15,691 bases of DNA, taken from the IMG/VR virus record IMGVR_UViG_2778261058_000019, one strand, 5' to 3'. This stretch comes from a virus (taxonomy: Duplodnaviria > Heunggongvirae > Uroviricota > Caudoviricetes). The notes under the pieces were generated by a model. The model saw only the letters and a program-made list of their open reading frames with translations, was not told where the DNA came from and did not search any database. The translations under genes and the position numbers were made by a program. This document shows positions 1,109 to 7,163 of this stretch, piece by piece (within the stretch, counting starts at the first letter, position 1; each line of letters starts with the position of its first letter).

Positions 1109-2158
1109 GTGCGGGTATTACTTAGACCTGTTCTGGTGCCTGAGCTTGGGCTGGTGGTCCTTAAGCCGGGCCGTGAATCCATACAGATATTTCATAATCC
1201 TCGAGTGCTGGTGGAACCGGAACCAAAAAGCATGCGTAATCTGCCATCCGGAGTCGTTCCTGCCGTTCGCCAGCCGCTGGCGGAAGACAAAACATTGCTG
1301 CCGTTTTTTAGTAACGAACGGGTGATTCGTGCTGCTGGCGGCGTTGGCGCATTGTCCGACTGGCTATTACGTCATGTTACATCCTGCCAGTGGCCTAATG
1401 GCGATTACCATCACACTGAAACAGTCATTCACCGTTATGGTACCGGCGCAATGGTGTTGTGCTGGCACTGCGACAACCAACTGCGTGACCAGACATCGGA
1501 ATCACTGGAGCTGCTTGCTCAACAAAATCTGACAGCATGGGTGATTGACGTCATCCGTCACGCAATAAGCGGTACGCAGGAGCGGGAATTATCTTTGGCT
1601 GAATTATCCTGGTGGGCGGTCTGCAATCAGGTGGTGGATGCACTACCTGAGGCTGTATCGCGTCGTTCGCTGGGATTACCAGCGGAAAAAATCTGCTCGG
1701 TGTACCGCGAAAGCGACATCGTACCGGGAGAGCAGACCGCCACCAGCATATTGAAACAACGCACAAAAAATCTTGCACCGTTGCCTTACGCCCACCAGCA
1801 ACAAAAATCACCACAGGAAAAGACGGTGGTAAGCATCACCGTTGATCCAGAGTCTCCGGAATCTTTCATGAAGCTGCCTAAACGTCGCCGCTGGGTTAAG
1901 GAGAAATACACACGTTGGGTTAAGACACAGCCGTGTGCTTGCTGCGGTATGCCAGCCGACGATCCGCATCATCTGATTGGTCACGGGCAGGGCGGAATGG
2001 GAACAAAAGCACATGATCTCTTTGTGTTGCCTTTGTGCAGAAAGCATCACAACGAGCTGCATACGGATACAGTGGCATTTGAAGATAAGTATGGCTCCCA
2101 ACTGGAGCTGATATTTCGTTTTATCGATCGCGCGCTGGCAATTGGCGTACTGGCGTAA
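1109..2158 (+). CDS. ydfU: YdfU-like prophage protein (349 aa) with HNH-like Cys/His motif at the C-terminus
   Basis: Long ORF ending TAA 2156-2158. GTG 1109 follows GGAGG (1100-1104) and gives 349 aa, the length I recall for YdfU; the ORF track begins at an upstream ATG (1070, 362 aa). C-terminus reads CACCGMPADDPHHLIGH...CRKHHNELH. Confidence 0.65.
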   Translation: MRVLLRPVLVPELGLVVLKPGRESIQIFHNPRVLVEPEPKSMRNLPSGVVPAVRQPLAEDKTLLPFFSNERVIRAAGGVGALSDWLLRHVTSCQWPNGDYHHTETVIHRYGTGAMVLCWHCDNQLRDQTSESLELLAQQNLTAWVIDVIRHAISGTQERELSLAELSWWAVCNQVVDALPEAVSRRSLGLPAEKICSVYRESDIVPGEQTATSILKQRTKNLAPLPYAHQQQKSPQEKTVVSITVDPESPESFMKLPKRRRWVKEKYTRWVKTQPCACCGMPADDPHHLIGHGQGGMGTKAHDLFVLPLCRKHHNELHTDTVAFEDKYGSQLELIFRFIDRALAIGVLA

Positions 2159-2171
2159 GTGGAGAACGAGC

Positions 2172-2924
2172 ATGAACCTTGAAGCCTTACCAAAATATTA
2201 CTCCCCAAAATCTCCAAAATTGAGCGATGACGCTCCAGCGACAGGCACCGGTTGTTTAACAATTACGGATGTAATGGCAGCGCAGGGGATGGTGCAGTCG
2301 AAAGCACCACTTGGGTTGGCCTTATTTCTGGCAAAAGTTGGTGTTCAGGACCCTCAGTTTGCGATTGAAGGCCTGCTAAATTACGCGATGGCACTGGATA
2401 ACCCGACATTGAACAAATTGAGTGAAGAAATCCGGTTACAGATTATTCCTTACCTCGTGAGTTTTGCCTTTGCTGATTACTCCAGGTCTGCGGCAAGTAA
2501 GGCTCGCTGTGAGCATTGTTCAGGTACGGGATTTTATAATGTATTGCGCGAAGTGGTGAAACACTACAGACGCGGGGAATCTGTAATCAAGGAAGAATGG
2601 GTGAAGGAACTATGTCAGCATTGCCATGGTAAGGGCGAAGCCAGCACAGCGTGCAGAGGGTGTAAGGGTAAAGGGATTGTTCTGGATGAAAAAAGAACCC
2701 GGTTTCATGGCGTACCGGTATATAAGATTTGTGGGCGTTGTAATGGAAACCGGTTTAGTCGTTTACCGACCACGCTGGCACGACGTCATGTCCAGAAGCT
2801 GGTACCAGACCTGACCGATTATCAGTGGTATAAGGGGTATGCGGACGTCATTGGTAAACTGGTAACAAAGTGCTGGCAGGAAGAAGCATACGCGGAAGCG
2901 CAATTGAGGAAGGTGACGAGATAA
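2172..2924 (+). CDS. quuQ: Late-gene antiterminator Q homolog (250 aa) with four DnaJ-type CxxCxGxG repeats
   Basis: ATG 2172 follows GGAG (2161-2164) and gives 250 aa; the ORF track starts at an in-frame TTG at 2142. It sits just upstream of a promoter-plus-terminator module and the lysis genes, as Q does in lambdoid phages. Cys repeats are CEHCSGTG, CQHCHGKG, CRGCKGKG and CGRCNGN. Confidence 0.7.
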   Translation: MNLEALPKYYSPKSPKLSDDAPATGTGCLTITDVMAAQGMVQSKAPLGLALFLAKVGVQDPQFAIEGLLNYAMALDNPTLNKLSEEIRLQIIPYLVSFAFADYSRSAASKARCEHCSGTGFYNVLREVVKHYRRGESVIKEEWVKELCQHCHGKGEASTACRGCKGKGIVLDEKRTRFHGVPVYKICGRCNGNRFSRLPTTLARRHVQKLVPDLTDYQWYKGYADVIGKLVTKCWQEEAYAEAQLRKVTR

Positions 2925-2955
2925 ATGATTTTTGCTGAAGATGGCGACATGATGT

Positions 2956-2984
2956 TTGCATTTTTCAAAAAATATGGATAAAAT
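2956..2984 (+). promoter_or_regulatory. Candidate Q-dependent late promoter (PR'-like)
   Basis: TTGCAT (2956-2961), 17-bp spacer, TAAAAT (2979-2984), immediately after the Q homolog and about 45 nt before a strong terminator. This is the typical PR'-qut-tR' arrangement; called by eye only. Confidence 0.35.
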
Positions 2985-3030
2985 TTTTTCAACGATGGGC
3001 TTTGTATACCCGACGTTAAGAAAAAGTAGA

Positions 3031-3057
3031 AAACCCGCTGATGAGCGGGTTTTGTGC
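3031..3057 (+). terminator. Rho-independent terminator (tR'-like) after the candidate late promoter
   Basis: Hairpin AACCCGCT-GATG-AGCGGGTT followed by TTTGTGCTTT. Confidence 0.65.
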
Positions 3058-3345
3058 TTTAAATGGGGCAATGGTAATGTTGAATCTCATCCCGGGACTC
3101 ATGTCTGTTAACTTATTATTTAGCTGGTGACTTGGTTATTTGCCTGATGTTTAAAATGTTTTCTTCCAGTACAATGTCCCTAAACACAATGAGTCTGCTT
3201 ATTATATTATTAGCAGAGCTATTACGGCCAAAGTACAGCATAAGCTTTTAAAGCCAATCAACCAGTCATCAAGACAGACGGGGTTATTCATAAAAACTCT
3301 CCATGTGTGATCCGATGGGGCCTGAAATTAAAGCTTTAATATAGC

Positions 3346-3558
3346 TCATGAAAGGTAAACATTGGCAGCTGAAGGGCCACGCAGACCATTTATCCGGCAA
3401 AATTCCACGCGTAATCCGGTGGTAATTTCTTCTGCATCGCGGAGATTGAGCGCTGAAACATGAAGCTGGACATCGATACGACCATCGGATGGGGTGATAA
3501 GACCCTTGCCGCTTTTGCCGTCAAAGGTTTTGACAATTCCTGTCATTTTACGGGACAA
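3346..3558 (-). CDS. cspF: Cold-shock protein CspF (CspA family, 70 aa)
   Basis: Translation [26 protein letters not shown]...[16 protein letters not shown] is a cold-shock domain protein. The first codon is TTG at 3558-3556 with SD AAGGA six nt upstream; the first in-frame ATG (3546) would have an 18-nt spacing. Confidence 0.8.
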
Positions 3559-3858
3559 AAAAATTCCTTAATACTGATAACTTGGCGCACTATACACACG
3601 TTCCTGAAGAAAGCTATAGTTTTTTGATGGGGTTGAAGATGGCTGGATGTCTAAAATAAACATTGCTTCATATGTTCAACTATGCGTTAATGATTGCGTC
3701 GGTTTGAAGAACAGACGATATACGAAGTAGTTTACTAAAGCAGTTCTCATTTCAGGTGTTATTCACTTATTCCTTCTTTGAGTCTCTCCAATTAAGTACG
3801 AAGTCGTTTCTGTTATGCAAACCATTTATGCCGAAAGGCTCAAGTTAAGGAATGTAGA

Positions 3859-4074
3859 ATGTCAAATAAAATGACTGGTTTAGTAAAATGGTTTAACGCT
3901 GATAAAGGTTTCGGCTTTATTTCTCCTGTTGATGGTAGTAAAGATGTGTTTGTGCATTTTTCTGCGATTCAGAATGATAATTATCGAACCTTATTTGAAG
4001 GTCAAAAGGTTACCTTCTCTATAGAGAGTGGTGCTAAAGGTCCTGCAGCAGCAAATGTCATCATTACTGATTAA
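3859..4074 (+). CDS. cspB: Cold-shock protein CspB (CspA family, 71 aa)
   Basis: [38 protein letters not shown]... carries the cold-shock domain RNP motifs KGFGFI and VFVHF. SD AAGGA at 3847-3851, ATG at 3859. Confidence 0.9.
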
Positions 4075-4356
4075 AATTCATCGCTCGTCTGTATACGATA
4101 ACGAAGAAGGCTGATGCCTGAGTAGAGATACGGACAGAGTAGTGAATATTGGATCTCTTTAATAAAAAGTAAGGAGGTCCAATACATGAAACAATGGCTA
4201 GCATATTTGGCAAAATCTTAATCAGGAAAAGTATGCTAACCATTGTGGTGAAGTGCAGGTTTGCTGCATGAATAGTTTTACAGCAGAAGCTAACTGCTGG
4301 CATGGCAAAACAAAGTGCGTAAGTGGATGACTCCCACAAAAAGCACCACAATCTCA

Positions 4357-4378
4357 AACCCGCTCAGGCGGGTTTTTT
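4357..4378. terminator. Rho-independent terminator, probably bidirectional (cspB transcript and the convergent zinc-ribbon gene)
   Basis: Hairpin AACCCGC-TCAG-GCGGGTT followed by TTTTTT on the + strand, with an A-run upstream that gives a U-run on the - strand. Confidence 0.65.
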
Positions 4379-4437
4379 ATTATCTGCTTTAAATATATTA
4401 TTAAAATATAAAAAATACTTGTTACTAATAAAATCAA

Positions 4438-4608
4438 TCAGGCTACAGCTTTAAGATTTGTCTGGAATACTTTGTTGCAATGAGGGCAGATCAAAAGGGC
4501 ACCTTTTTGTACTCTTGAAAAACTGTGTTCTGACTCTTGGGTGCAGTTTGGGCAGGAACATTTAACGAGATAATTACGGCGTGATTTTGAGTTTTTACGT
4601 TCTGACAT
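4438..4608 (-). CDS. ynfU: Small zinc-ribbon protein (56 aa; CxCxxC...CxxC)
   Basis: ATG at 4608-4606 is preceded by AGGA about 8 nt upstream. Product MSERKNSKSRRNYLVKCSCPNCTQESEHSFSRVQKGALLICPHCNKVFQTNLKAVA. The track's 73-aa version starts at an upstream ATG with no SD. The symbol ynfU (56-aa zinc-binding protein in Qin) is from memory and is uncertain. Confidence 0.5.
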   Translation of the reverse strand: MSERKNSKSRRNYLVKCSCPNCTQESEHSFSRVQKGALLICPHCNKVFQTNLKAVA

Positions 4609-4827: not shown

Positions 4828-5043
4828 ATGAAATCAATGGATAAGTTAACAACAGGTGTTGCCTATGGCACATCGGCGGGTAATGCTGGTTTCTGGGCAT
4901 TGCAGTTACTCGATAAAGTAACTCCGTCACAGTGGGCTGCAATCGGTGTGCTGGGTAGCCTGGTTTTTGGCCTGCTGACGTATCTGACAAATCTTTATTT
5001 CAAGATTAAAGAAGACAGGCGTAAGGCTGCGAGAGGAGAGTAA
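4828..5043 (+). CDS. essQ: Class II pinholin, S21-like (71 aa), with dual-start motif MKSM
   Basis: [71 protein letters not shown] closely resembles the phage 21 pinholin as I recall it. Met1 and Met4 give the holin/antiholin dual start. A GGGGTGAGGA SD precedes; the ORF track starts 25 codons upstream at an ATG with no SD. Confidence 0.85.
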
Positions 5044-5047
5044 TCCA

Positions 5048-5355
5048 ATGACTCAAGACTATGAACTGGTTGTGAAAGGAGTCCGTAATTTTGAGAATAA
5101 AGTTACGGTAACTGTAGCCTTACAGGACAAAGAACGCTTTGACGGTGAAATTTTTGACCTGGATGTCGCCATGGACCGTGTTGAAGGAGCTGCGCTGGAG
5201 TTTTATGAGGCAGCAGCCAGAAGGAGCGTCCGGCAAGTCTTCCTGGAAGTAGCAGAAAAATTGTCAGAAAAAGTTGAGTCTTATCTGCAGCATCAGTACT
5301 CCTTTAAGATTGAAAATCCTGCCAATAAGCACGAGCGTCCTCATCATAAATATCT

Positions 5356-5359
<4 letters not shown>
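5048..5359 (+). CDS. ydfR: YdfR-like protein (103 aa) inserted between holin and endolysin
   Basis: ORF with strong SD GAGAGGAGAG (5031-5040); stop TGA 5357-5359 overlaps the endolysin ATG (ATGA). Function unknown. Confidence 0.7.
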
Positions 5360-6383
<1,024 letters not shown>

Positions 6384-6609
6384 GGTAATATTAAATCGGA
6401 ACATTTACATCGCGGAATGTAAAATTTAAATAAAAAGGACTCTTCCATGAGCCAAAATTCCTGAAATCTTAAGGGTAAGATAAAAGGTCTTAATCAGAAT
6501 GACACGTTTTATTAATAAATAAAGCTATTCTTTCATTGCTGTGTTTTTCTTTACAAAAGTAATCCTTGCTATGGGTGGTTAATCATGCGTTAATGGTGTT
6601 CTGGTTTGT

Positions 6610-6642
6610 TACAAATTTATCTGAAGCAGTCATTGTTATAAT
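6610..6642 (+). promoter_or_regulatory. Candidate cspI promoter (perfect -10 TATAAT at 6637-6642, weak -35, AT-rich upstream)
   Basis: TATAAT lies about 100 nt upstream of the cspI ATG, consistent with the long 5' UTRs of cspA-family genes. Called by eye; low confidence. Confidence 0.3.
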
Positions 6643-6745
6643 TTTATTATTTGTACCTCTTGAGATTTCCTTGTTGGTTTTTCTCTCTGATATTTTTTTT
6701 CGGACCATTCTGCCCAAGGGCTAATTTCTTCAAAAGGTAATAATT

Positions 6746-6958
6746 ATGTCTAACAAAATGACTGGTTTAGTGAAATGGTTTAACCCTGAAAAAGGTTTTG
6801 GTTTCATCACGCCGAAAGATGGCAGCAAAGATGTGTTTGTCCATTTCTCAGCAATTCAGAGCAACGATTTCAAAACATTAACTGAGAATCAGGAAGTTGA
6901 ATTTGGTATTGAGAACGGACCTAAAGGTCCTGCCGCTGTTCATGTAGTGGCGCTTTGA
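6746..6958 (+). CDS. cspI: Cold-shock protein CspI (CspA family, 70 aa)
   Basis: [38 protein letters not shown]... is a cold-shock domain protein and a close paralog of the cspB copy at 3859. Confidence 0.9.
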
Positions 6959-7163
6959 GGTAGACAATATTACAAACCATATTCACTTTAGATGCCCGTG
7001 TTGTCATGGTTCCCAGTATAGAACATCATCTTTTGATGTTTCTGACATGAATCCTTTCGGGGCAAAATGTATCTTTTGTAAATCAATGATGATTACATTT
7101 GATAATATTTCACAATACTTAAATGCCAGCCGTCTGTCGTTGGATTTAAAAAAGTGAAAATGA

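What the first reader, a model, noticed from the sequence alone, without database searches (positions are those of the whole stretch)
2925..3345. Compact late promoter plus terminator downstream of Q, with cspF antisense to the late transcript
A sigma-70-like promoter (-10 TAAAAT at 2979-2984) is followed about 45-65 nt later by a strong terminator (3031-3057), which would yield a short RNA unless Q modifies RNA polymerase. Antiterminated transcripts would then run antisense through cspF (minus strand) and sense through cspB before reaching the lysis genes. That makes cold-shock gene expression potentially dependent on the prophage late switch.
Basis: inference. Interest (0 to 1): 0.35.

Follow-up and report, generated by a model that had tools for sequence, protein, structure and literature searches.

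The report
Qin prophage late promoter and terminator
Just downstream of the Q antiterminator gene of this Qin-type E. coli prophage lies a textbook lambda-style late-gene switch (promoter, built-in pause signal, terminator), so the finding is real but ordinary; only its suggested control of the neighbouring cold-shock genes is untested.

Summary
The window is a Qin-type lambdoid prophage of E. coli. Its Q gene (2172-2924) belongs to the Q-lambda family.

Downstream of Q lie:
- a -35 element TTGCAT (2956-2961), a 17-bp spacer and a -10 element TAAAAT (2979-2984);
- AACGATGGG (2991-2999), identical to the sigma70-dependent pause element of lambda PR' at +1 to +9;
- an intrinsic terminator (hairpin 3030-3053).

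Published Term-seq of E. coli K-12 places an RNA 3' end at window 3057, so the predicted RNA is 67 nt. The same layout follows Q-lambda-family genes in dozens of Enterobacterales species. A terminator about 50-70 nt downstream is the usual arrangement.

Homology to relatives ends at the terminator. The csp genes are therefore cargo in the variable slot between tR' and the lysis genes. Q dependence was not tested, and cspB has its own cold-shock leader.

Verdict: a new member of a known kind, of low interest.

One side lead: the pause element co-varies with a downstream segment, which implies a conserved hairpin at the 5' end of the transcript.

The parts
2172..2924 (+). Q antiterminator gene (quuQ/ydfT), 250 aa, Q-lambda family
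   Evidence: Pfam PF03589 E=3.6e-54. Matches the lambda Q structure 7ubm at E=4.6e-36. RefSeq annotates it as ydfT antitermination protein. PF03589 is the Q-lambda family according to PMC9388147.
2956..2961 (+). -35 element TTGCAT of the late promoter (PR'-like)
   Evidence: Conserved as (C/T)TTGCAT in all Qin-type relatives. It is the same hexamer that the phi80 record annotates as the pR' -35.
2962..2978 (+). 17-bp spacer TTTTCAAAAAATATGGA; putative Q-binding element
   Evidence: Nearly invariant among phages whose Q is 94-100% identical, and recognisably conserved at 63-72% identity. It differs in the other Q clades. In lambda and phi80 the Q site lies between -35 and -10. Binding was not tested.
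2979..2984 (+). -10 element TAAAAT
   Evidence: The aligned T-A...T columns are invariant across 9 Q-lambda-family phages.
2991..2999 (+). Predicted +1 (A2991) and sigma70-dependent pause element AACGAT plus GGG
   Evidence: Identical to lambda PR' +1 to +9 (PMC4005639). Single occurrence in the window. The exact motif lies within 200 nt after the Q stop codon in 35 of 79 diverse genomic loci, and related -10-like variants occur in most of the others. The start site itself is inferred.
2991..3017 (+). Predicted hairpin at the 5' end of the transcript: AACG.UGGG / CCCG.CGUU
   Evidence: Present in the MFE structure. RNAalifold keeps all 8 pairs in 19-20 of 20 Qin-like sequences. It co-varies with the pause element across the family.
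3030..3060 (+). tR'-like intrinsic terminator: hairpin 3030-3053 plus tail; in vivo 3' end at C3057
   Evidence: Fold of 2991-3064 gives -30.4 kcal/mol, z=-6.7. The K-12 Term-seq 3' end at 1642356(-) maps to window 3057. Relatives have a hairpin of different sequence at the same place.
2991..3057 (+). Predicted 67-nt short late-leader RNA, the analogue of lambda 6S RNA
   Evidence: The 5' end is inferred from the lambda homology and the 3' end is measured. The concept is from PMC7547250.
3030..3053 (-). The same hairpin read on the minus strand; possible terminator for cspF-ynfS
   Evidence: The scan calls it on the minus strand, with tail CTACTTTTTC. Fold z=-4.8. No minus-strand 3' end was listed here in K-12 Term-seq.
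3202..3291 (-). ynfS, a 29-aa small protein that would be antisense to a read-through late transcript
   Evidence: The translation matches the published YnfS exactly. Annotated in RefSeq.
3346..3558 (-). cspF
   Evidence: Pfam CSD E=5.6e-22; RefSeq annotation.
3698..4074 (+). cspB with its cspA-type thermoregulatory 5' UTR (CDS 3859-4074)
   Evidence: Rfam RF01766, 158.8 bits, over 3698-4090. Pfam CSD.
4356..4375 (+). Second intrinsic terminator that a late transcript must read through
   Evidence: Scan. In K-12 it is used on the minus strand: a 3' end at window 4353, downstream of ynfU.
4438..4608 (-). ynfU, which would be antisense to the late transcript
   Evidence: Pfam YnfU E=6.4e-31; RefSeq coordinates.
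4828..6383 (+). Lysis cassette: holin essD/essQ 4828-5043, ydfR, lysozyme rrrQ, rzpQ. These are the first late genes.
   Evidence: Pfam Phage_holin_2_1, DUF1327 and Phage_lysozyme; RefSeq annotation.

Best explanation
This is the Q-dependent late-gene regulatory cassette (PR' with its Q-binding site, a sigma70-dependent pause element, and tR') of a Qin-type lambdoid prophage.

Proposed mechanism:
1. Sigma70 RNA polymerase initiates constitutively at about A2991 from TTGCAT-17 bp-TAAAAT.
2. Sigma region 2 re-binds the -10-like AACGAT/GGG in the non-template strand at +1 to +9, and the polymerase pauses in the promoter-proximal region.
3. Without Q it resumes and terminates at the hairpin 3030-3053, releasing a 67-nt RNA that ends at C3057.
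4. When QuuQ is made, it binds the conserved spacer between -35 and -10, loads onto the paused polymerase and makes it terminator-resistant.
5. Transcription then reads through tR', across the inserted csp cargo and a second terminator at 4356-4375, into the holin, lysozyme, Rz, terminase and the rest of the late genes. Across the cargo it is antisense to ynfS, cspF and ynfU and sense through cspB.

Shown here: the family of Q, the sequence elements and their conservation, the terminator structure, and the in vivo 3' end in K-12.

Inferred here: the exact start site, the pause, Q binding, Q-dependent read-through, and any effect on csp gene expression.
For: Identity of the locus and of Q:
- The region is 99-100% identical to Qin in over a thousand E. 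coli genomes. RefSeq annotates ydfT (Q), cspF, cspB, ynfU, essD, rrrQ and rzpQ.
- Q hits Pfam PF03589 at 3.6e-54 and the lambda Q structures 7ubm and 4mo1. PF03589 is the Q-lambda family, and the cassette is defined as Q gene, PR', pause element, terminator and late genes (PMC9388147).

The pause element:
- AACGATGGG at 2991-2999, 6 nt after the -10, equals lambda PR' +1 to +9. AACGAT is the -10-like element and GGG the discriminator-like element (PMC4005639).

Conservation:
- The same order of elements follows Q in mEp460, Stx2c phages, a Salmonella phage, SF6, HK225, phi80 and the lambda-like HK630. The HK630 and phi80 records annotate these features as PR'/pR', the Q site and terminators.
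- In 80 viral contigs with Q 94-100% identical, the promoter and pause element are almost invariant. The terminator stem differs between variants but still forms a hairpin, and the sequence diverges into several different contexts right after the T-run.
- In 79 loci from different Enterobacterales species, 43 have the motif in relaxed form. Of these, 42 have a hairpin plus T-run, and in 37 the stem ends 52-70 nt after the start of the pause element.

Experimental data:
- Term-seq in K-12 lists a 3' end at 1642356(-), which is window C3057. It is listed three times in a file with one tab per growth condition.
- The nearest upstream same-strand 3' end is at window 841, before ydfU. That fits a local promoter as the source of this RNA, although the evidence is circumstantial.

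Structure:
- The 74-nt fold gives -30.4 kcal/mol, z=-6.7.
Against: - No transcription start site data could be retrieved, so initiation at about 2991 is inferred. The held Cappable-seq, SMRT-Cappable-seq and RNET-seq supplements have no entry near the predicted site, and the held text totals only a few hundred thousand characters per paper, so the tables may not be held in full.
- The promoter hexamers alone are not above chance.
- The plus-strand U-tract is short and interrupted (UUUUGUGCUUU), weaker than in relatives.
- K-12 shows another plus-strand 3' end 168 nt further on, at 3225, in one condition. Termination may therefore be leaky without Q, or there is another promoter.
- No paper on QuuQ activity was found in the library.
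- The region upstream of the pause element that sigma region 4 contacts in lambda (TTGACT) is TTTTTT here, which is a weaker match.
Confidence: 0.85

Rival explanations
1. The hairpin is simply the terminator that ends the early-right ydfU-quuQ transcript. The upstream promoter-like hexamers are inactive, so the 3' end at 3057 comes only from transcripts that start upstream of Q.
For: Term-seq gives only 3' ends, and no start site data were found. The hexamer match alone is at chance level. The terminator lies 106-133 nt after the Q stop codon and would stop such transcripts as well.
Against: This does not explain why -35, spacer, -10 and AACGATGGG are conserved in position and sequence after Q genes as little as 33% identical. 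In lambda and phi80 the same elements are the characterised late promoter. The nearest upstream same-strand 3' end in K-12 is at window 841, before ydfU. The two roles are also not mutually exclusive.
Confidence: 0.06
2. The hairpin is mainly the terminator of the convergent minus-strand cspF-ynfS unit. It came in with the csp cargo rather than belonging to the Q cassette.
For: The consensus scan calls it only on the minus strand, where the T-run is better: CTACTTTTTC. An A-tract precedes the stem, so the element is symmetric. No other minus-strand terminator-like site was found between ynfS and Q.
Against: Relatives with no csp cargo have a hairpin at the same distance from the pause element. 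Homology to those relatives runs through the stem to about 3053 (H9-H11). K-12 Term-seq lists the 3' end on the plus strand of the window and none on the minus strand here. It may well serve both directions.
Confidence: 0.05
3. Besides being a by-product of antitermination control, the 67-nt RNA is a trans-acting regulatory small RNA in the lysogen, like StxS of Shiga-toxin phages.
For: There is a precedent: the PR'-tR' RNA of Stx phages is an Hfq-dependent sRNA (PMC7547250). The 3' end is detected in uninduced K-12 with scores of the same order as neighbouring mRNA ends. An RNA named cspF.ydfT.IGR appears in Hfq RIL-seq chimeras.
Against: That RIL-seq entry has an sRNA score of 0.0024, against a candidate threshold of 0.1. 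It has only 2 interactions and a SIC score of -0.5, which is target-like behaviour, and its strand is not given. The U-tail is short (4 U). No Rfam family matches. The region between the two hairpins varies between close relatives.
Confidence: 0.08

Closest known systems
Phage lambda late cassette: Q, PR' with qut (Q-binding element plus pause element), tR', 6S RNA
   Same: The Q protein is of the same family (PF03589; 33% identity, E=4.6e-36 to 7ubm). The order is the same: Q gene, promoter, pause element, terminator, lysis genes. AACGATGGG is identical and starts 6 nt after the -10. The -10 is similar (TAAAAT against TAAATT).
   Different: The terminator stem ends 63 nt after the predicted start instead of about 190 nt, so the RNA is 67 nt rather than 194 nt. 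The spacer, the presumed Q site, is unrelated in sequence. The -35 is TTGCAT rather than TTGACT. The TTGACT that sigma region 4 uses next to the pause element in lambda is TTTTTT here. This Q carries an insertion of about 40 aa with extra CxxCxGxG motifs.
Phage phi80 pR' cassette (gp17 = Q), as annotated in JX871397
   Same: A long-form Q (36% identity). The -35 TTGCAT, the 17-bp spacer ending in ...CTGGA and a TA...T -10 are the same. A terminator is annotated about 50 nt after the -10, giving a similarly short leader RNA.
   Different: The pause element is AACGCT rather than AACGAT. The central part of the spacer differs (TCGCGGA is the annotated Q site). There is no cargo between the terminators and the holin.
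Shiga-toxin phage PR'-tR' with StxS and stx cargo
   Same: A constitutive PR' terminated at tR' in the lysogen gives a short RNA. Accessory ('moron') genes sit between tR' and the lysis genes and are transcribed by Q-modified polymerase. Stx2c phages carry a Q 94% identical to this one with the same promoter.
   Different: The cargo here is csp genes, two small-protein genes and their own terminators. Half of it is in the antisense orientation. The short RNA shows no sign of sRNA behaviour in the one dataset available.
Antisense-oriented genes directly after tR' in other lambdoid phages (HK225_067, an SF6 hypothetical gene)
   Same: A minus-strand gene lies immediately downstream of the late terminator, so Q-modified transcription must run antisense through it.
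   Different: The genes are different, and none of them has been studied for this effect.

Membership tests
Q-lambda-type late regulatory cassette (Q, PR'/Q-binding element, pause element, tR', late genes) | [quoted passage not shown] | tested here: met
   PF03589 E=3.6e-54. Lambda Q structure 7ubm E=4.6e-36, matching over both halves of the protein. The Q stop codon is 31 nt before the -35.
Q-lambda-type late regulatory cassette (Q, PR'/Q-binding element, pause element, tR', late genes) | A sigma70 promoter shortly downstream of Q, on the same strand | tested here: inconclusive
   The sequence is present and conserved: TTGCAT-17-TAAAAT. No transcription start site data were obtained.
Q-lambda-type late regulatory cassette (Q, PR'/Q-binding element, pause element, tR', late genes) | A -10-like sigma-dependent pause element in the initial transcribed region, followed by a GGG discriminator-like sequence | tested here: met
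   AACGATGGG at 2991-2999, identical to lambda +1 to +9. Met at the sequence level only; pausing itself was not measured.
Q-lambda-type late regulatory cassette (Q, PR'/Q-binding element, pause element, tR', late genes) | A Q-binding element between -35 and -10 that is bound by the cognate Q | not testable with these tools
   The spacer is nearly invariant within the Qin-type Q clade and differs in other clades, which is consistent with a cognate site. Binding needs an experiment.
Q-lambda-type late regulatory cassette (Q, PR'/Q-binding element, pause element, tR', late genes) | An intrinsic terminator between the promoter and the late genes | tested here: met
   Hairpin at 3030-3053, fold z=-6.7. 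In vivo 3' end at 3057 in K-12. Positional conservation in relatives.
Q-lambda-type late regulatory cassette (Q, PR'/Q-binding element, pause element, tR', late genes) | Lysis and morphogenesis genes downstream on the same strand | tested here: met
   Holin, DUF1327 and lysozyme by Pfam. RefSeq annotates essD, ydfR, rrrQ and rzpQ on the plus strand.
Q-lambda-type late regulatory cassette (Q, PR'/Q-binding element, pause element, tR', late genes) | Q-dependent read-through of the terminator | not testable with these tools
   No experiment on QuuQ was found in the library.
PR'-derived regulatory sRNA (StxS type) | Hfq-associated RNA that behaves as an sRNA: many targets, second position in chimeras | tested here: not met
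   cspF.ydfT.IGR has an sRNA score of 0.0024, 2 interactions and a SIC score of -0.5. The strand of that RNA is not given, so the test is weak.
Bidirectional intrinsic terminator | A hairpin flanked by an A-tract and a U-tract, with 3' ends formed on both strands in vivo | tested here: inconclusive
   The sequence symmetry is present. Only the plus-strand 3' end is listed in K-12 Term-seq, and cspF may simply be too little expressed in those conditions.

The most novel reading that the evidence does not exclude
Across the Q-lambda family, the sigma70-dependent pause element at the start of the late transcript doubles as the 5' arm of a conserved hairpin that begins at nucleotide +1 or +2.

When the pause hexamer varies, a segment about 15-30 nt downstream changes to stay complementary:
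- AACGA pairs with TCGTT
- AACAA with TTGTT
- AATGA with TCATT
- AATCA with TGATT
- TCGTG with CACGA
- GATTAT with ATAATT

In this window the pairs are 2991-2994 with 3014-3017 and 2996-2999 with 3009-3012.

The most likely role is a flush 5' stem-loop that protects the late mRNA and the short leader RNA from 5'-end-dependent decay. This is an inference from the known stabilising effect of 5'-terminal stem-loops in E. coli, recalled from my own knowledge. An alternative is a hairpin in the scrunched non-template DNA strand that helps sigma let go of the pause element.

I found no mention of such a hairpin in the papers I could read, but the older lambda literature is not in the library. I therefore cannot say that it is new.
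Probability: 0.4. Interest if true: 0.5.

Novelty: new member of a known kind. Interest (0 to 1): 0.22.

Why it matters
The result gives a precise and testable annotation for a stretch of E. coli K-12 that current annotation leaves blank. An 'orphan' Term-seq 3' end at 1642356(-) becomes the end of a predicted 67-nt late-leader RNA of the Qin prophage. QuuQ gets a defined target site.

It also shows that the csp, ynfS and ynfU genes sit in the cargo slot behind tR'. That is the same slot that holds Shiga toxin genes in phages with a 94% identical Q. If this prophage, or a helper supplying a matching Q, is induced, these genes should therefore be hit by strong late transcription, sense for cspB and antisense for the others.

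None of this changes how late-gene control is understood. It extends the lambda paradigm to one more, very widespread, prophage.

Tried and rejected
- **Start-site evidence.** I searched the held supplements of Cappable-seq (PMC4782308), SMRT-Cappable-seq (PMC6131387) and RNET-seq sigma-pausing (PMC7876045) for K-12 coordinates around 1642422 (and, in the Cappable-seq supplement, the older-coordinate equivalent 1640446) and found nothing. The held text may not include the full tables. Conway 2014 has no held supplements. Thomason 2015, Ju 2019 and Guo & Roberts 2004 are not held.
- **Literature on quuQ/ydfT.** No functional paper turned up.
- **Rfam.** No family matches the short RNA; the only hits are the cspA thermoregulators of cspB and cspI and a sub-threshold Trp-leader look-alike at the second terminator.
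- **Promoter scan.** Taken alone it is not significant, so I did not use it as evidence.
- **A coding role for the ORF at 2956-3111.** One phage record annotates it as a CDS. I rejected this because it spans the conserved promoter, pause element and terminator.
- **MAFFT alignment of the first 36 transcribed bases.** It came back ungapped, so the partner columns were not in register and it could not be used for pair counting. I used a permutation test on anchored sequences instead.
- **RIL-seq 2016 supplements.** They are not held.
- **Plus-strand promoter between 3058 and 3200.** I looked by eye for one that could explain the 3225 3' end. The only candidate is weak (GTGACT, 19 bp, TAAAAT), so this was left open.
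Full report
**What the window is.** The 2140-4500 stretch is 99-100% identical to the Qin prophage region of more than a thousand complete E. coli genomes. RefSeq annotates the genes in the order ydfU, ydfT (antitermination protein Q), a 29-aa gene, cspF, cspB, ynfU, essD, ydfR, rrrQ, rzpQ, cspI. The phage record PhiR42_1 has an identical Q and the same neighbours. The Q protein (2172-2924, 250 aa) matches Pfam PF03589 at 3.6e-54. It also matches the solved lambda Q structures at 4.6e-36. PF03589 is the Q-lambda family (PMC9388147). Compared with lambda Q, it has an insertion of about 40 residues with extra CxxCxGxG motifs. The phi80, HK225 and many other 'long' Q proteins share this insertion.

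**Checking the observation.** TAAAAT is at 2979-2984, and a GC-rich hairpin AAAACCCGCT/GATG/AGCGGGTTTT is at 3030-3053. The hexamers alone mean little. The scan found 10 promoter-like sites in 3.5 kb against 7.2 +/- 2.7 in shuffles. It called the terminator only on the minus strand, because the plus-strand T-run is short. Six bases after the -10 comes AACGATGGG (2991-2999), which is letter for letter the start of the lambda PR' transcript. There, AACGAT at +1 to +6 is the -10-like element that sigma70 re-binds to cause the promoter-proximal pause, and GGG is the discriminator-like element that strengthens it (PMC4005639; sequence comparison). The motif occurs once in the window, against 0.14 expected. 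The better -35 is TTGCAT (2956-2961) with a 17-bp spacer. The phi80 record annotates the same hexamer and spacing as pR'.

**Comparative evidence.** The same order of elements follows the Q gene in every phage I examined:
- E. coli N54, mEp460, an Stx2c phage and Salmonella phage 118970_sal3 (Q 90-94% identical);
- SF6, HK225 and an Stx2a phage (38-42%);
- phi80 (36%) and the lambda-like HK630 (33%).

The order is -35, spacer, -10, 6-7 nt, then AACGATGGG (AACGCTGGG in phi80). The -10 T-A...T and AACG.TGGG columns are invariant in the alignment.

In 80 viral contigs whose Q is 94-100% identical, the promoter and pause element hardly vary. The terminator stem differs between variants (CCCGCT/AGCGGG, CCTCGC/GCGGGG, ACCGCC/AGCGGT and others) but still forms a hairpin. 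The sequence then splits into several unrelated contexts directly after the T-run. Megablast homology to csp-less relatives also ends at window 3053 (H9-H11). The Q-promoter-terminator unit is therefore one module, and what follows it is exchangeable cargo.

I also examined 79 loci from different Enterobacterales species. The exact motif lies within 200 nt of the Q stop codon in 35 of them, and a relaxed form in 43. Most of the rest show a visibly related promoter with another -10-like hexamer, such as AACAAT, AACACT, AATCGT or GATTAT. Of the 43, 42 have a hairpin plus T-run. In 37 of these the stem ends 52-70 nt after the start of the pause element. A short leader is therefore the rule in this family, and lambda's 194-nt 6S RNA is the outlier.

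**Experimental evidence from the literature.** Term-seq of E. coli K-12 MG1655 (PMC7815308, supplementary file 1) lists an 'orphan' 3' end at 1642356 on the minus strand. Its flanking sequence is TACCCGACGTTAAGAAAAAGTAGAAAACCCGCTGATGAGCGGGTTTTGTGC|TTTAAATGGG. That 61-mer is window 3007-3067, so the 3' end is C3057. Six other Term-seq 61-mers from the neighbourhood also match the window exactly, and for those with a listed K-12 coordinate the conversion window = 1645413 - K-12 coordinate holds. The entry occurs three times in a file with one tab per growth condition, with scores of 103,591 and 55,368 in the two passages shown. An RNA ending at this terminator is therefore present in uninduced cells. 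With the start inferred from lambda (A2991), it would be 67 nt long. This fits the general picture that PR' is constitutive and is terminated at tR' in lysogens. That gives the 6S RNA of lambda, similar RNAs in phages 21, phi80, 82 and P22, and StxS in Stx phages (PMC7547250).

I could not find start-site data. The nearest same-strand 3' end upstream is at window 841, before ydfU. That makes a local promoter the more likely source, but it is not proof.

**Mechanism.** The sequence and conservation show the elements, and Term-seq shows the termination point. The following steps are inferred from the lambda family:
1. Initiation occurs at about 2991.
2. Sigma70 pauses the polymerase on AACGAT/GGG.
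3. QuuQ binds the conserved spacer 2962-2978.
4. QuuQ loads onto the paused polymerase, with NusA.
5. The modified polymerase reads processively through 3057 and the second terminator at 4356-4375 into the holin (4828-5043), lysozyme, Rz and the structural genes.

Two details suggest that this copy may be less tight than its relatives. First, the U-tract is only UUUUGUGCUUU, while relatives have 5-7 U. Second, K-12 shows a further plus-strand 3' end at window 3225 in one condition, behind a small hairpin and antisense to ynfS. I cannot tell whether that comes from read-through or from an unmapped promoter.

**The csp part of the interpretation.** Between tR' and the holin lie:
- ynfS (3202-3291, minus strand), a 29-aa protein verified by tagging (PMC6001520);
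- cspF (3346-3558, minus strand);
- cspB (CDS 3859-4074, plus strand);
- a terminator at 4356-4375;
- ynfU (4438-4608, minus strand).

A Q-modified transcript would be antisense to three of these genes and sense for cspB. However, cspB carries a full cspA-type thermoregulatory 5' UTR (Rfam RF01766, 158.8 bits, 3698-4090), which implies its own promoter. RNA polymerase holoenzyme binding in the cspB/cspF spacer has been reported (PMC5493296). The cspF-cspB unit is about 77% identical to the chromosomal cspH-cspG pair. Its normal cold-shock control is therefore self-contained. Late transcription would be an extra input only during induction, as it is for other cargo genes in this slot, such as stx in the Stx2c phages that carry a 94% identical Q. 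Minus-strand genes directly behind tR' also occur in HK225 and SF6, so the antisense layout is not unusual. No data bear on whether it matters.

**Rival readings.**
- The hairpin only ends the quuQ transcript. This cannot explain the conservation of the promoter and pause element.
- The hairpin belongs to the cspF-ynfS unit. This is contradicted by its presence in csp-less relatives and by the strand of the mapped 3' end. The element is symmetric, however, and may work in both directions.
- The short RNA is a regulatory sRNA like StxS. This finds no support in the one dataset I could read. 'cspF.ydfT.IGR' has an sRNA score of 0.0024, two interactions and target-like behaviour, but its strand is not stated.

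**Comparison with what is known.** This works like, and by every sequence-level criterion is a member of, the Q-lambda late cassette. Three things remain untested: the start site, Q binding and Q-dependent read-through. The closest described relative in layout is phi80 pR', which has the same -35 and spacer length, a long-form Q and a terminator about 50 nt after the -10. I found no paper that describes the Qin version. I therefore rate it a new member of a known kind, of low interest.

**Side lead.** The predicted RNA begins with a hairpin, AACG.UGGG / CCCG.CGUU (2991-3017). RNAalifold on 20 Qin-like sequences, aligned by sequence only, keeps all eight pairs in 19-20 of 20.

Across the wider family, the pause hexamer and a segment about 15-30 nt downstream change together: AACGA/TCGTT, AACAA/TTGTT, AACA/TGTT, AATGA/TCATT, AATCA/TGATT, TCGTG/CACGA, GATTAT/ATAATT. 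Two permutation tests support this:
- With one representative per 5-mer class, the summed Watson-Crick helix length is 63, against 49.0 +/- 3.6 when downstream segments are permuted. Only 5 of 20,000 permutations reach 63.
- With 35 representatives that are less than 70% identical over -45 to +30, the sum is 141 against 112.0 +/- 5.4, and 0 of 5,000 permutations reach it. Eight control arms placed from -30 to +14 give z-scores between -0.8 and 1.1.

The pause element therefore appears to double as the 5' arm of a hairpin flush with the 5' end of the late transcript. A protective 5' stem-loop is the simplest reading. A non-template-strand DNA hairpin that helps release sigma is an alternative. 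That alternative is prompted by the report that Q-modified complexes stay anchored while scrunching to +24 to +28. Whether this is already described in the older lambda literature I could not check.

**Verdict.** The extension to csp regulation is plausible but untested. The feature is ordinary.

Noticed in passing
window 2991-3017; loci L002-L010 and L092-L171 downstream of Q: The sigma-dependent pause hexamer at the start of PR' transcripts co-varies with a segment about 15-30 nt downstream. This implies a conserved hairpin flush with the 5' end of the late transcript across the Q-lambda family (z=5.4 against permuted partners; control arms give no signal).
   Followed up: partly
window 3202-3291 (-): ynfS, a 29-aa experimentally detected small protein with a hydrophobic C-terminus, lies between tR' and cspF.
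   Followed up: yes
window 3225 (+), K-12 1642188(-): K-12 Term-seq lists a plus-strand 3' end behind the small hairpin TCTGCT...AGCAGA, antisense to ynfS. It appears in one growth condition, with a score higher than that of tR' in the same sample. It could be Q-independent read-through of tR' or an unmapped promoter between 3058 and 3200.
   Followed up: partly
window 4343-4403; terminator 4356-4375: The strong terminator after cspB is used on the opposite strand in K-12: a 3' end at window 4353, downstream of ynfU. The csp cargo is thus bracketed by two symmetric terminators.
   Followed up: partly
window 2172-2924, about residues 121-160: This Q has an insertion of about 40 aa relative to lambda Q with additional CxxCxGxG motifs (Pfam DnaJ_CXXCXGXG, 1.3e-08). 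It probably forms a second zinc site. Phi80, HK225 and many other 'long' Q proteins share the insertion.
   Followed up: partly
window 3350-3973: The divergent cspF-cspB unit, including its intergenic region, is about 77% identical to the chromosomal cspH-cspG pair found in nearly all E. coli genomes. One is evidently a copy of the other.
   Followed up: no
window 2956-3111 (+); L011 4785-4940: A 51-codon TTG-start ORF is annotated as a hypothetical protein in phage PhiR42_1. It spans the conserved promoter, pause element and terminator, so the gene call is probably spurious.
   Followed up: partly
window 6600-6985 (+): cspI also carries a cspA-type thermoregulatory 5' UTR (Rfam RF01766, 112.8 bits). 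It sits inside the late operon between the lysis genes and the terminase genes, so it is a second csp cargo gene in the sense orientation.
   Followed up: no
L095 (Veillonella parvula MAG); L115 and L133 (Chryseobacterium sp. 18061 assembly): Contigs assigned to non-enterobacterial organisms carry enterobacterial Q cassettes; the Veillonella one is 99% identical to Qin. This is most likely contamination or misbinning in those assemblies.
   Followed up: no
window 841 (+), K-12 1644572(-): A Term-seq 3' end lies upstream of ydfU with no obvious canonical terminator. It suggests that most transcription coming from the hokD/rem side stops before ydfU-quuQ in uninduced K-12.
   Followed up: no
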